Of a DNA stretch of 26,246 bases, positions 20,972-21,954 are shown one piece after another; positions within the stretch are counted from its first letter, which is position 1, and each line of letters starts with the position of its first letter. The stretch is from positions 1 through 26,246 of the IMG/VR virus record IMGVR_UViG_3300031867_000495. One strand, written 5' to 3'. The translations under genes and the position numbers were made by a program. The notes under the pieces were generated by a model. The model saw nothing but the letters and a program-made list of their open reading frames with translations, did not search any database and was not told where the DNA came from. The DNA comes from a virus.

Positions 20972-21954
20972 ATGATTATGATTTATAACGTATACAAAAT
21001 TTAGAATTTAATTAATGGAAAAGTTTATATTGGGTCTAGTCAAAATGTTTAGAAACGTTGGATTGCACATAAAAATGCTGCAAATAATCCAAATAACCCT
21101 CATTATAATTATCCTTTATATCGAGCTTTTAGAAAATATAAATTAAAAAATTTTAATTTTACTATTATTGGCACTTATAATACTAAAGAAGAGATGGAAT
21201 AGGCAGAGTATAATTATATTATAAAATATGATTCTACTAATAATTAGAAAGGGTATAATCAAACTTTATTTACAGAATGTGCGTTACGAGATCCAGATAT
21301 TATGAGAAAAATACTAGAAAAAAAATCTCAAAAATGTGCTTTAGTAAATGAAAAAGAAGAAATTATATAGATTTATCCCTCTTACCAAGAAGCCGCTAGA
21401 CAAAATAATATAACAAATGGAGCTAATCATGTCAGATTAGTGTGTAAAGGTATACAGCATTCTATTAATAACACTTTATTTTTTAGAGATTTAAATGAAA
21501 ATAATCAAGTTGTTCATTTAAGTAATAATATTCTACCCAAAAATTATAGAAATAGAGAAAAAATAGTTGCAATTTCTGCTGATAATCCAAATGAAATAAA
21601 ATATTATAATTCTATTTATGAGGCTGCTAACGAATTACAAACAGATAGAGGTTCAATTCATAGTTGTTTAAAAGGAGATACTAGACACTCTTTAGTAAAA
21701 GGTTATATTATTAGAAGAGTAGACTAGAATAATAATATAATTGAAAATAATATTAAAATTTCAGACAAACTTAAAGAGTATAATGAAAAATTTCCTTTAA
21801 TTAATGGAGAAAGACATACTAAAACTGAATGGTGCCGTATTTATAATGTAAAATGGCCTACAATTAGAAATCGTTTAAAAACGTATGATATAACTTTTGA
21901 ACAAGCATTAACAACATCAAGAGCTAAATTAAGCTCTTTTAAAAGAAGGGAGTG
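20972..21954 (+). CDS. GIY-YIG homing endonuclease with two NUMOD1-like DNA-binding motifs and a C-terminal HTH-like tail (about 327 codons). It contains 6 in-frame TAG codons (21002-21004, 21053-21055 and four more) and ends at TGA. A likely free-standing mobile HEG
   Basis: N-terminus IYKI[TAG]NLINGKVYIGSSQNV[TAG]KRWIAH is the GIY-x10-YIG ... R ... H catalytic signature with TAGs at ordinary residue positions. It has the NUMOD1-like motifs IYPSYQEAARQNNITNGANHV and SIYEAANELQTDRGSIHSCLKGDTRHSLVKGY. ORF 21440..21727 is only the TAG-free central piece. Confidence 0.7.

What the first reader, a model, noticed from the sequence alone, without database searches (positions are those of the whole stretch)
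20972..21954. Mobile GIY-YIG endonuclease that itself uses the recoded TAG
The HEG carries six in-frame TAGs, including two inside the GIY-x-YIG catalytic core. It can therefore only be made in cells where TAG is decoded, which confines it to the recoded phage lineage or to co-infections with such phages. It has its own copy of the promoter box and lies between two genes of the same metabolic theme
Basis: seen in the sequence. Interest (0 to 1): 0.5.

Follow-up and report, generated by a model that had tools for sequence, protein, structure and literature searches.

The report
Homing endonuclease cassette with ribosome hop
A selfish DNA-cutting gene that reads TAG as an amino acid sits inside a phage phosphoesterase gene. 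It carries a spare gene start broken by a 7-base stop-containing insert, which ribosomes probably hop over; that would be a rare natural case of translational hopping.

Summary
Window 20978(20972)-21955 is an intact GIY-YIG plus NUMOD-like homing endonuclease (HEG) gene with six in-frame TAGs and no TAA or TGA (chance about 1.6e-12). It is under purifying selection (dN/dS 0.07-0.17). TAG behaves as Gln. A stop-recoded phage HEG has been described before (Borges et al.), so that part is not new.

The HEG does not lie between two genes. Nine HEG-less relatives show a 1108-nt cassette (20897-22004) inserted at codon 9/10 of a metallophosphoesterase (MPP) gene. The cassette brings its own RBS, ATG and replacement N-terminus (MSQTFFTSDLH). 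This is followed by CAT TAG T CAT, and the MPP body is then in the +1 frame with no start of its own.

Across about 27 related cassettes there are 15 distinct short inserts of 4-8 nt. They put the body in all three frames. Each has a stop directly after a take-off codon, and 12 of 15 have an identical or synonymous landing codon that restores D-x-H-x-x-H. A 5' hairpin is specific to interrupted genes. Interruption occurs only next to a HEG.

Best reading: short programmed stop-hops let the MPP be made, while the insert destroys the regenerated HEG target. This parallels T4 gene 60/MobA. All of it is inferred from sequence; nothing was tested biochemically.

The parts
20853..20859 (+). Original Shine-Dalgarno sequence (AAGGAGG) of the phosphoesterase gene
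   Evidence: Read from the sequence. The same position precedes the intact MPP gene in HEG-less relatives.
20868..20896 (+). 5' remnant of the phosphoesterase (MPP) gene: ATG plus codons 2-9 (MIYFTADLH) plus AT. It runs on as a junk ORF to the TAA at 20913-20915.
   Evidence: The remnant follows the HEG-less alleles (MIYFTADLHIGHDKDF...) up to CATAT at 20892-20896; in the L008, L009 and L015 excerpts the 29 nt are identical. The blastn alignments break at 20896. Comparable remnants lie upstream of the HEG in at least 18 related cassettes.
20897..22004 (+). Inserted mobile cassette of 1108 nt (length = 1 mod 3). It holds a left-end motif, a promoter-like spacer, the HEG, a surrogate RBS, start and N-terminus, and the 7-nt interruption. 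The boundary is ambiguous by 5 nt because CATAT is present at both ends.
   Evidence: Nine HEG-less relatives at 92-95% identity lack it, and L013 at 99.8% identity has it. The cassette is more conserved than its flanks against L017 and L029.
20897..20915 (+). Cassette left-end motif GTAGGCCAAAAATATATAA (family consensus about AAATGTAGGTCAAAAGTAATAA). Function unknown.
   Evidence: It is conserved at the same place in nearly all cassettes, including those whose HEGs are only about 45% identical.
20926..20945 (+). Partial copy of the phage's promoter-like box (AAAATTTTTAATATA, then divergent)
   Evidence: Full boxes lie at 15497, 16009, 18609 and 20290, against 0.19 expected. A weak sigma-70-like match lies at 20933-20961.
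20978..21955 (+). GIY-YIG / NUMOD-like homing endonuclease gene, 325 aa (327 aa if started at 20972). Six TAG sense codons start at 21002, 21050, 21200, 21245, 21368 and 21725. The stop TGA is at 21953-21955.
21946..21952 (+). Surrogate Shine-Dalgarno sequence (AAGGGAG) for the replacement MPP start. It overlaps the 3' end of the HEG.
   Evidence: Read from the sequence. An equivalent RBS is present in all related cassettes.
21963..21995 (+). Cassette-borne replacement N-terminus of the MPP (MSQTFFTSDLH), ending in the proposed take-off codon CAT (21993-21995)
   Evidence: It supplies the D-x-H metal-binding motif that the body lacks. The segment is 100% identical in L029, although the MPP body there is only 71.5% identical.
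21964..21992 (+). Hairpin UGAGUCAGA / UCUGACUUA with an 11-nt loop. It spans the surrogate start to 1 nt before the take-off codon.
   Evidence: RNAfold gives -9.2 kcal/mol for the 36-nt segment. Hop cassettes average -7.85 (n=24) against -1.74 for uninterrupted MPP starts (n=11), Mann-Whitney p=2e-5. 96% of cells are paired and two pairs carry compensatory changes.
21996..22002 (+). 7-nt interruption: TAG (21996-21998), spacer T (21999) and the proposed landing codon CAT (22000-22002)
   Evidence: It is absent from HEG-less alleles, which read CAT ATC GGN CAT. It is conserved as CAT TAG Y CAT/CAC in nine other cassettes (L013, L017-L020, L029, L033, L042, L052). There are 15 analogous site types in the family.
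22003..22515 (+). MPP body (IGHDKDFIW...NNIQM, plus stop), in the +1 frame relative to the surrogate start. Its first in-frame ATG/GTG/TTG is 83 codons after the second His.
   Evidence: The reconstructed hop product matches PHROG 547 'phosphoesterase' at 2.6e-46 over residues 1-177 and Pfam Metallophos_2. Its dN/dS against HEG-less alleles is 0.07-0.15.

Best explanation
A 1.1-kb mobile cassette has homed into codon 9/10 of a phage metallophosphoesterase (MPP) gene.

1. The endonuclease. The cassette encodes a functional GIY-YIG homing endonuclease. Its six TAG codons are read as sense, most likely Gln, by this TAG-recoding phage. The enzyme can therefore be completed only when TAG is decoded; by inference that is late in infection.

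2. Keeping the host gene usable without an intron or intein. The cassette carries, just after the HEG, its own ribosome-binding site, an ATG and a replacement N-terminus (MSQTFFTSDLH). Joined directly to the body, this would rebuild both the gene and the HEG's own target site.

3. The interruption. A 7-nt insert (TAG T CAT) breaks the rebuilt target. By inference this protects the carrier genome from self-cleavage.

4. The hop. The ribosome pauses with peptidyl-tRNA-His on CAU and the stop UAG in the A site. The tRNA lets go and re-pairs with the next CAU, 7 nt downstream. Decoding resumes at AUC GGG CAC and gives the wild-type DLHIGH sequence. A hairpin just 5' of the take-off codon probably helps forward movement.

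Shown from sequence: the insertion, cassette mobility, HEG integrity, TAG as a sense codon, the pattern of matched codons, the hairpin, and the link between HEG presence and interruption.

Inferred: hopping itself, its efficiency, the immunity role of the insert, and the timing of expression.
For: Insertion and mobility:
- HEG-less alleles read MIYFTADLH|IGHDKDF. The window carries 1108 extra nt at that point.
- The cassette is more conserved than its flanks.
- For L114 against L115, HEG dS is 0.12 while MPP dS is 0.9.

HEG function:
- Domain matches are above threshold and the I-TevI catalytic residues are retained.
- dN/dS is 0.07-0.17.
- TAG alternates with CAG and CAA.

Hop:
- The body has no usable start. 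The first is 83 codons downstream in the window.
- All complete bodies next to a HEG are intact, with 163-186 codons.
- In 27 interrupted loci there are 15 distinct inserts adding 4, 5, 6, 7 or 8 nt. They put the body in the +1, 0 and -1 frames, so no single frameshift direction explains them.
- Every insert has a stop directly 3' of the take-off codon.
- In 12 of 15 types the codon that would restore D-x-H-x-x-H spacing is identical or synonymous to the take-off codon. Examples are CAT TAG T CAT, CTT TGA CTT, CAC TGA CAT, GGT TAG GT and GGT TAA A GGT. The binomial probability is 5e-13.
- Uninterrupted homologues have D-x-H-x-x-H without exception (77 of 77). The solved relative 1XM7 has it too.
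- A 5' hairpin is specific to interrupted genes (p=2e-5) and shows compensatory changes.
- Interruption occurs only next to a HEG: 27 and 2 loci with a HEG, against 0 and 86 without (Fisher 2.8e-24).

Precedent:
- The T4 gene 60 bypass insert blocks MobA self-cleavage (Manning & Atkins, bioRxiv 10.1101/2022.08.31.505936, citing Bonocora 2011).
- Synthetic stop-hops with matched codons flanking a stop work in E. coli (review PMC5009743).
Against: - There is no protein or ribosome data. Everything rests on comparative sequence.
- For the window's own site (+7), a +1 frameshift giving DLH-SH-IGH cannot be excluded from this site alone.
- Three of the 15 site types lack a fully matched landing codon (TGT TAG Y with AGY; CAT...AAT).
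- Synthetic stop-hops are inefficient, and efficiency here is unknown.
- In this phage TAG is itself decoded as sense, so when the suppressor is present read-through to a 16-aa dead-end peptide competes with hopping.
- The site types are not all independent origins, so the binomial and Fisher values overstate significance. The top-80 MPP sample was ranked by full-length score, which favours uninterrupted genes.
- Purifying selection on MPP bodies could largely pre-date each insertion, because the cassette is mobile.
- The hairpin also covers the surrogate start codon and could serve initiation control instead.
- The HEG's cleavage site and the immunity role of the insert are untested.
Confidence: 0.68

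Rival explanations
1. At the window's site the ribosome makes a +1 frameshift on CAU UAG U rather than a hop. With the slow UAG in the A site it reads AGU in the +1 frame. The resulting MPP has two extra residues (DLH-SH-IGH).
For: The body is in the +1 frame. The base after TAG is always a pyrimidine, so the +1 codon is always AGY (Ser) in the TAG-N types. A stop-stimulated +1 shift is a known mechanism (prfB; my own knowledge). The TGT TAG Y type has no fully matched landing codon.
Against: - The in-frame types (X STOP X', six variants) and the GGT TAG GT type (-1 frame) in the same cassette family cannot be rescued by a +1 shift.
- All eight +7 and +6 His or Gly sites carry a duplicated take-off codon, which a frameshift does not need.
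- tRNA-His cannot re-pair on AUU.
- The product would insert two residues into a D-x-H-x-x-H motif that is invariant in 77 of 77 uninterrupted homologues.
Confidence: 0.12
2. The phosphoesterase is simply inactivated in HEG-carrying genomes. The short inserts are immunity scars or repair products with no translational rescue, and the surrogate N-terminus is a leftover.
For: There is no direct evidence of expression. The cassette is mobile, so intact bodies could reflect recent insertions. MPP may be dispensable: HEG-less and HEG-carrying phages coexist. The upstream remnants do decay (L020).
Against: - None of the complete bodies next to a HEG has a stop or frameshift, in AT-rich DNA where other frames are full of stops.
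- A dead gene would not need in-frame 6-nt inserts to carry a stop flanked by synonymous codons, nor matched landing codons in 12 of 15 types (p about 5e-13).
- It would not need a hairpin specific to interrupted genes.
- It would not need a conserved RBS, ATG and FxSDxH-coding surrogate in cassettes whose HEGs are only 45% identical.
Confidence: 0.1
3. The 1.1-kb insert is a self-splicing (group I or II) intron carrying the HEG. Splicing joins the upstream MIYFTADLH exon to the body.
For: The insertion is precise, lies within a coding sequence, and its removal restores the frame. GIY-YIG HEGs are often intron-encoded (I-TevI). A weak blastn hit falls on a phage group I intron endonuclease.
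Against: - Rfam gives no intron hit at gathering score on the window, or at E<=10 on 20700-22200.
- Only about 75 and 50 nt of extremely AT-rich non-coding sequence flank the ORF.
- No boundary within the CATAT ambiguity gives an exon ending in U together with an intron ending in G.
- An intron needs no second RBS, ATG and N-terminus, and the upstream remnant decays in relatives (L020, L111).
Confidence: 0.02
4. One reading: a free-standing HEG sitting between two intact genes, whose only special feature is that its TAG codons tie it to TAG-decoding cells.
For: The TAG use is real. A distant relative (P0043, L026) is free-standing between other genes with an intact MPP downstream.
Against: HEG-less alleles prove insertion inside the MPP gene. 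The downstream gene is interrupted and out of frame. The same HEG family has members with 0 TAGs in standard-code phages.
Confidence: 0.05

Closest known systems
Phage T4 gene 60 / MobA cassette (HNH homing endonuclease plus a 50-nt translational bypass in the topoisomerase gene)
   Same: - A HEG inserted inside an essential-motif-coding region of a host gene.
- The cassette supplies a new start for the downstream part.
- A short non-coding insert near the HEG target, bypassed by ribosomes.
- Matched take-off and landing codons, and a stop codon directly after the take-off codon.
- mRNA pairing 5' of the take-off site.
- In T4 the insert protects the carrier from self-cleavage.
   Different: - A different HEG family (GIY-YIG rather than HNH MobA) and a different target (metallophosphoesterase rather than Topo II).
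- The gap is 4-8 nt instead of 50 nt.
- There is no take-off stem-loop or SD inside the gap, and no long nascent-peptide signal, because only 11 residues have been made.
- The gene is not split into two functional polypeptides. A 9-codon remnant is discarded and the N-terminus is replaced.
- Many different insert types sit at three adjacent codons.
- Here the stop can be a codon that the phage itself recodes.
Synthetic 'stop-hops' in E. coli (matched codons flanking a stop, e.g. CUU UAG CUA; Weiss et al. 1987, as reviewed in PMC5009743)
   Same: The arrangement of take-off codon, stop and matched codon is the same, with hops of a few nucleotides in any frame.
   Different: Those were engineered constructs with low efficiency. 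The review states that no natural in-frame stop-hopping cases were known. Here the pattern is natural, conserved, tied to a mobile element and accompanied by a 5' hairpin.
I-TevI and the Seg-type GIY-YIG homing endonucleases of T4-like phages
   Same: An N-terminal GIY-YIG catalytic domain with the Tyr, Tyr, Arg, Glu and Asn residues, a C-terminal NUMOD/HTH-type DNA-binding region, and presence/absence polymorphism.
   Different: It is not in a group I intron. It is not simply intergenic as Seg genes are. It is only about 30% identical to I-TevI over 90 residues. It uses TAG sense codons.
TGA-recoded group I intron endonuclease of Agate phages (Borges et al., bioRxiv 10.1101/2021.08.26.457843)
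   Same: A HEG in a stop-codon-recoded phage, inserted in a gene of the non-recoded (early) class, with in-frame recoded stops proposed to delay its production until late infection.
   Different: The recoded codon is TGA->Trp rather than TAG->Gln. That HEG is intron-encoded, with splicing restoring the host gene. Here there is no intron; a surrogate start plus a hop does the job.
MobE-split nrdA of Aeromonas phage Aeh1, and 'byp' elements of Magnusiomyces capitatus mitochondria
   Same: MobE shows that a HEG insertion inside an ORF can be tolerated without an intron or intein. The byps are many short inserts bypassed with matched or near-matched codons.
   Different: With MobE the two protein pieces reassemble and there is no bypass. 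The byps are 27-55 nt, mitochondrial and not linked to a HEG.

Membership tests
GIY-YIG homing endonucleases | GIY-YIG catalytic domain above the curated threshold | tested here: met
   PF01541 scores 35.0 bits against a cut-off of 22.6. The I-TevI catalytic domain 1MK0 matches at E=1.8e-5.
GIY-YIG homing endonucleases | Catalytic residues (Tyr of GIY, Tyr of YIG, Arg27, Glu75 and Asn90 in I-TevI numbering) present and not TAG-encoded | tested here: met
   In the alignment to I-TevI the motifs VY..YIG..KRW..AEY..GYN are retained. Y6, Y17, R27 and N94 (P0001 numbering) are invariant in 30 homologues. The TAG columns are variable.
GIY-YIG homing endonucleases | Separate DNA-binding module (NUMOD/HTH type) | tested here: met
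   PF22083 I-HmuI_NUMOD-like scores 37.8 bits against 27. NUMOD1 is sub-threshold.
GIY-YIG homing endonucleases | Mobility: presence/absence at one defined site in otherwise collinear genomes, with the element more conserved than its flanks | tested here: met
   (nine HEG-less relatives and one HEG-carrying one). (step in identity at the cassette borders). (HEG dS 0.12 against MPP dS 0.9 for L114/L115).
GIY-YIG homing endonucleases | Site-specific cleavage of the HEG-less allele | not testable with these tools
   This needs purified enzyme (with TAG changed to CAG) and target DNA.
Programmed translational bypassing (gene 60 type) | Two ORFs that make one protein, with the downstream ORF lacking its own start | tested here: met
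   The surrogate ORF ends at TAG 21996. The body frame has no ATG/GTG/TTG until 83 codons after the second His. The joined product matches PHROG 547 over residues 1-177.
Programmed translational bypassing (gene 60 type) | Matched take-off and landing codons | tested here: met
   CAT...CAT in the window. 12 of 15 site types are identical or synonymous, p=5e-13.
Programmed translational bypassing (gene 60 type) | Stop or hungry codon immediately 3' of the take-off codon | tested here: met
   All 15 site types have TAG, TAA or TGA directly after the take-off codon.
Programmed translational bypassing (gene 60 type) | Take-off stem-loop and SD-like element inside the coding gap, a 50-nt gap, and a nascent-peptide signal | tested here: not met
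   The gap is 4-8 nt and only 11-29 residues have been made before take-off. The structure found lies 5' of the take-off site instead.
Programmed translational bypassing (gene 60 type) | Homology to the gene 60 / MobA cassette | tested here: not met
   The HEG family (GIY-YIG) and the host gene (MPP) are different. It is an analogue, not a homologue.
Programmed translational bypassing (gene 60 type) | Demonstrated single polypeptide spanning the gap | not testable with these tools
   This needs mass spectrometry or reporter assays.
Group I intron-encoded HEG | Ribozyme core flanking or overlapping the ORF, with exon-U / intron-G boundaries | tested here: not met
   No Rfam intron hit at gathering score, or at E<=10. 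No boundary choice within CATAT gives U|...G|.
TAG-to-Gln recoded phage (genetic code 15) | In-frame TAGs in long conserved ORFs, and TAG aligning with Gln codons in relatives | tested here: met
   (4-8 TAGs in each structural ORF of the minus strand). (TAG aligns with TAG 42, CAG 11, CAA 6, GAA 5 and other codons 3 times)..
TAG-to-Gln recoded phage (genetic code 15) | Phage-encoded suppressor tRNA(CUA) and/or release-factor manipulation | tested here: inconclusive
   No tRNA was found in the window or in 17 related loci, but only part of each genome is held.

The most novel reading that the evidence does not exclude
A widespread family of gut and rumen phage HEG cassettes uses natural, programmed short-range ribosome hopping (+4 to +8 nt over a stop codon, driven by a 5' hairpin). 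This lets them disrupt their own DNA target inside an active-site-coding sequence without changing the protein. It would be the first natural set of stop-hops, with many independent variants in all three frames. In TAG-recoding phages the same TAG codon would act as a hop signal early in infection and as a Gln codon late, giving opposite temporal control of the host gene and the selfish gene.
Probability: 0.55. Interest if true: 0.9.

Novelty: new variant of a known kind. Interest (0 to 1): 0.8.

Why it matters
Programmed translational bypassing has rested on essentially one bacterial and phage example, T4 gene 60. A 2022 survey still called that cassette unique, and a 2016 review stated that natural in-frame stop-hops were unknown.

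If the reading here is right, it gives recoding researchers:
- a natural series of at least 15 small, easily cloned hop sites, covering different stops, spacers, frames and take-off codons;
- a shared 5' hairpin whose role can be tested directly.

It also shows a third way, besides introns and inteins, for a homing endonuclease to live inside a gene. The cassette replaces the gene's start and hides its own target behind a hop.

For genome annotation, such phosphoesterase genes will be called as fragments or pseudogenes.

The TAG-containing HEG on its own adds one more example to a published idea, late-only HEG production in recoded phages. It also shows that the HEG family has moved between standard-code and recoded phages.

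Tried and rejected
- Group I or II intron: no Rfam hit at gathering score or at E<=10. The flanks are too short and AT-rich, and the splice-boundary rules are not met. Rejected.
- tRNA search for a suppressor in the window and in 17 loci: nothing found. Uninformative, because only partial genomes are held.
- Phage GenBank blastn of 20500-22600: only three short 70-72% hits, so there is no close cultured relative.
- IMG/VR single-protein scan with the HEG: no relative. An exact DNA pattern for the hop site in IMG/VR: 0 hits. Relatives came instead from ENA/Logan look-ups and from profile scans.
- Independent initiation of the MPP body: rejected. There is no start codon in the window, and elsewhere only a GTG inside the SD, which would give a protein lacking D-x-H.
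- Termination-reinitiation: rejected. No start codon lies near the stop, and the product would lack the metal-binding motif.
- Simple stop read-through for the in-frame types: it would add two residues to an invariant motif and does not explain the synonymous flanking codons.
- dN/dS of MPP bodies as proof of selection after insertion: the values are low (0.07-0.5) but judged weak evidence, because the cassette moves between alleles.
- My first HEG-finder script mis-called ORFs. It was corrected.
- Structure prediction was not run, because it would not separate a hop from a frameshift.
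Full report
**1. The observation**

Window 20972-21954 translates into 327 codons with six in-frame stops, all TAG, and no TAA or TGA. The true stop, TGA, is at 21953-21955. With the local base composition (25% GC) the chance of 327 codons without TAA or TGA is 1.6e-12. The two other frames contain 20 and 47 such stops.

The product has a GIY-YIG domain and an I-HmuI/NUMOD-like domain, both above Pfam's thresholds. It hits PHROG 'homing endonuclease' families and aligns with the I-TevI catalytic domain (1MK0). Homologues begin at the second ATG (20978), giving 325 aa.

The phage as a whole reads TAG as sense. The structural ORFs on the minus strand carry 4-8 TAGs each, for example 6673-11955 with 1761 codons and 8 TAGs.

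**2. Is the endonuclease alive, and what does TAG mean?**

Sixty-four homologues were found. Against relatives with 96%, 90% and 84% nucleotide identity, dN/dS is 0.07, 0.15 and 0.17, with no frameshift. The pseudogene alternative is therefore rejected.

TAG codons of window genes align in 92-95% identical relatives with:
- TAG, 42 times
- CAG, 11 times
- CAA, 6 times
- GAA, 5 times
- other codons, 3 times

Within the HEG, TAG columns alternate with CAA and CAG, and also GAA and AAA. This fits TAG = Gln (code 15). That is an inference; no suppressor tRNA lies in the DNA held.

The six TAGs occupy variable polar columns (T/E/Q/K/N). The catalytic Tyr, Tyr, Arg, Glu and Asn are ordinary codons.

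In the same HEG family at the same target, some members have no TAG (L022, L023, L030, L032, L038, L044, L112, L116). Others have 1-10 TAGs at different positions. TAGs are therefore acquired after a cassette enters a recoded phage.

The idea that recoded stops postpone HEG production to late infection was already published for a TGA-recoded intron endonuclease (Borges et al.).

**3. Where the HEG really sits**

A look-up of the upstream 100-aa protein returned nine related phages without the HEG and one with it (L013, 99.8% identical).

In HEG-less genomes an intact 179-aa metallophosphoesterase (MPP) gene starts 2 nt after the upstream gene. It reads ATG ATA TAT TTT ACA GCA GAT TTA CAT ATC GGG CAT GAT..., that is MIYFTADLHIGHDKDF. 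These genomes align with the window up to 20896 and again from 22000, sharing CATAT.

The HEG therefore lies in a 1108-nt insertion (20897-22004) at codon 9/10 of the MPP gene, not between two genes.
- Upstream, a 9-codon remnant (20868-20896) keeps the old RBS.
- Downstream of the HEG, the cassette carries a new RBS (21946-21952), an ATG (21963) and MSQTFFTSDLH.
- Then comes CAT TAG T CAT ATC GGG CAC.
- The MPP body (to 22515) is in the +1 frame, and its first possible start lies 83 codons further on.

No intron signature exists.

**4. The cassette is the mobile unit**

| Compared with window | HEG | Surrogate start + interruption | MPP body | Upstream flank |
|---|---|---|---|---|
| L029 | 90% | 100% (49/49) | 71.5% | not compared |
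| L017 | 84% | 92% | 64% | 43% |

For L114 against L115, HEG dS is 0.12 but MPP dS is 0.9.

The right border of the cassette coincides with the interruption.

Most cassettes keep a 5' MPP remnant upstream (at least 18 loci). It would provide left-hand homology for homing; that is an inference. Nearly all share a conserved left-end motif of about 20 nt whose function is unknown.

**5. The interruption is a family trait with a telling pattern**

Profile scans of JGI metagenomes and IMG/VR, plus contig look-ups, gave 27 loci in which a HEG of this family directly precedes an interrupted MPP gene. Fifteen distinct site types occur, at three adjacent codons of the D-x-H-x-x-H motif.

| Extra nt | Site types |
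|---|---|
| +7 | CAT TAG T/C CAT; CAT TAG C CAC; CAC TGA C CAT; GGT TAA A GGT |
| +6, in frame | CTA TAA CTA; CTT TGA CTT; CTT TAA CTG; CTT TAA CTA; CAT TGA CAC; CAC TGA CAT |
| +5 | GGT TAG GT\|CAT |
| +4 | TGT TAG C\|CAT; TGT TAG T\|CAT |
| +8 | CAT TAG AAAAT\|TTT |

- The bodies lie in the +1, 0 or -1 frame, so no single frameshift explains them.
- Every site has a stop right after the take-off codon.
- In 12 of 15 types the codon that would restore the invariant spacing is identical or synonymous to the take-off codon (binomial 5e-13). The types are not all independent, so this value is an upper bound on significance.
- All complete bodies are intact, with 163-186 codons.
- Uninterrupted homologues always read D-x-H-x-x-H (77 of 77). 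The solved relative 1XM7 does too. D-x-H is metal-binding motif I of the calcineurin-like phosphoesterases (established knowledge), so the N-terminal piece must be joined to the body.
- Interruption is seen only next to a HEG: 27 interrupted and 2 uninterrupted with a HEG, against 0 and 86 without (Fisher 2.8e-24). Sampling caveats apply.

**6. A 5' hairpin**

The 36 nt ending at the His codon of D-x-H fold stably in hop cassettes (mean -7.85 kcal/mol, n=24). They do not in uninterrupted MPP starts (-1.74, n=11; Mann-Whitney p=2e-5).

In the window the hairpin is 21964-21992 (UGAGUCAGA/UCUGACUUA).

In a subfamily that aligns without gaps, 96% of cells pair. Two pairs change on both sides: synonymous changes in the Ser-Asp codons are matched by changes in the non-conserved extension codons (7 of 500 shuffles reach the observed score).

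Pairing of mRNA emerging behind the ribosome has been proposed as a driver of forward bypassing in gene 60 (bioRxiv 10.1101/2024.12.09.627546; discussed). The hairpin also covers the surrogate start codon, so a role in initiation or coupling is not excluded.

**7. Mechanism proposed**

- Shown: the insertion, its mobility, an intact TAG-using HEG, the matched-codon pattern, the hairpin, and the association of HEG with interruption.
- Inferred (a): the surrogate N-terminus would regenerate the HEG target, and the short insert breaks it. This parallels the 50-nt gene 60 insert that blocks MobA.
- Inferred (b): ribosomes paused with a stop in the A site hop, with peptidyl-tRNA re-pairing at the matched codon 4-8 nt downstream. 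This gives a wild-type MPP.
- Inferred (c): timing in this phage. The MPP is the last gene of a TAG-free block that is preceded by promoter-like boxes. Early in infection the HEG would abort at its first TAG while the MPP hop can work. Late in infection TAG decoding completes the HEG and competes with the hop.

**8. Rivals**

- A +1 frameshift at the window's own site cannot be excluded from that site alone. It fails for the in-frame and -1 types and does not need duplicated codons.
- A dead MPP does not explain stops flanked by synonymous codons, intact bodies, conserved surrogate starts and the hairpin.
- Splicing, re-initiation and plain read-through were rejected (see the tried-and-rejected field).

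**9. Comparison and novelty**

The closest system is T4 gene 60/MobA. The logic is the same, but the HEG family, the target, the gap length and the signals differ, so this is an analogue and not a homologue.

The site architecture equals the synthetic stop-hops of Weiss et al. The 2016 review noted that no natural in-frame cases were known. A 2022 survey called the gene 60 cassette unique. Five literature searches found no description of this system, though the library is incomplete.

The TAG-using HEG on its own is a new member of a known kind. The cassette with short stop-hops is a new variant of a known kind.

**10. Verdict**

What is really there is a HEG cassette inside a gene that appears to rely on programmed short ribosome hops.

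- Confidence in the insertion, the mobility and a live TAG-using HEG is about 0.9.
- Confidence in hopping as the rescue mechanism is about 0.7.
- Interest: 0.8.

Noticed in passing
window 16061-18559 (+): An 832-aa protein matches the Major Vault Protein shoulder domain (PF11978, 2.4e-23), Vault_3 and SPFH/Band_7. It is conserved in all related phages and has no TAG codons. A vault-like protein is unusual in a phage.
   Followed up: no
window 15497, 16009, 18609, 20290 (+): A 21-nt promoter-like box, AAAATTTTTAWTATAATATAT, occurs four times against 0.19 expected. All copies lie in front of a block of TAG-free genes (15543-20866). Genes after the MPP and all minus-strand structural genes contain TAGs. 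This suggests a split between early and late genes in code use.
   Followed up: partly
window 20897-20915; same position in L017-L116: A left-end motif of about 20 nt (consensus about AAATGTAGGTCAAAAGTAATAA) is conserved even among cassettes whose HEGs are about 45% identical. It resembles the 3' half of the MPP target (GGT CAT AAT AAA). It could be a HEG operator, a stop trap for the remnant ORF, or a recombination arm.
   Followed up: partly
L017 4605-6978: In this relative the gyrB-like gene is only 513 aa and is followed by a second GIY-YIG ORF. Other relatives have a gyrB of 634-635 aa. This may be a second HEG splitting a topoisomerase gene, reminiscent of T4 genes 39/60.
   Followed up: no
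L111 and L046: Two loci have a HEG directly upstream of an uninterrupted MPP start. L111 still has the cassette left-end motif and a decayed remnant. These may be cassettes protected in some other way, or cassettes with an inactive HEG.
   Followed up: partly
window 19011-20246 and 20564-20866; L019-L026: An RNA ligase (PF09414 plus the PHA02142 OB domain) lies upstream. In relatives an AAA_33/KTI12-type kinase and PhoH flank the MPP. This looks like an RNA-repair neighbourhood. The 100-aa zinc-ribbon protein hits PHROG 1257, 'ribosome associated inhibitor A'.
   Followed up: no
hop sites of window, L017-L020, L029, L033, L036, L040, L042, L052: In phages whose HEGs contain TAG sense codons, the stop at the hop site is often TAG itself. 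There is no sign that recoded phages avoid TAG at this position.
   Followed up: partly
window 24215-25918 (+): The lysin gene encodes 567 aa and carries 2 TAGs. In relatives the equivalent gene has GH25, CHAP and SH3 domains. This points to a Gram-positive host.
   Followed up: no
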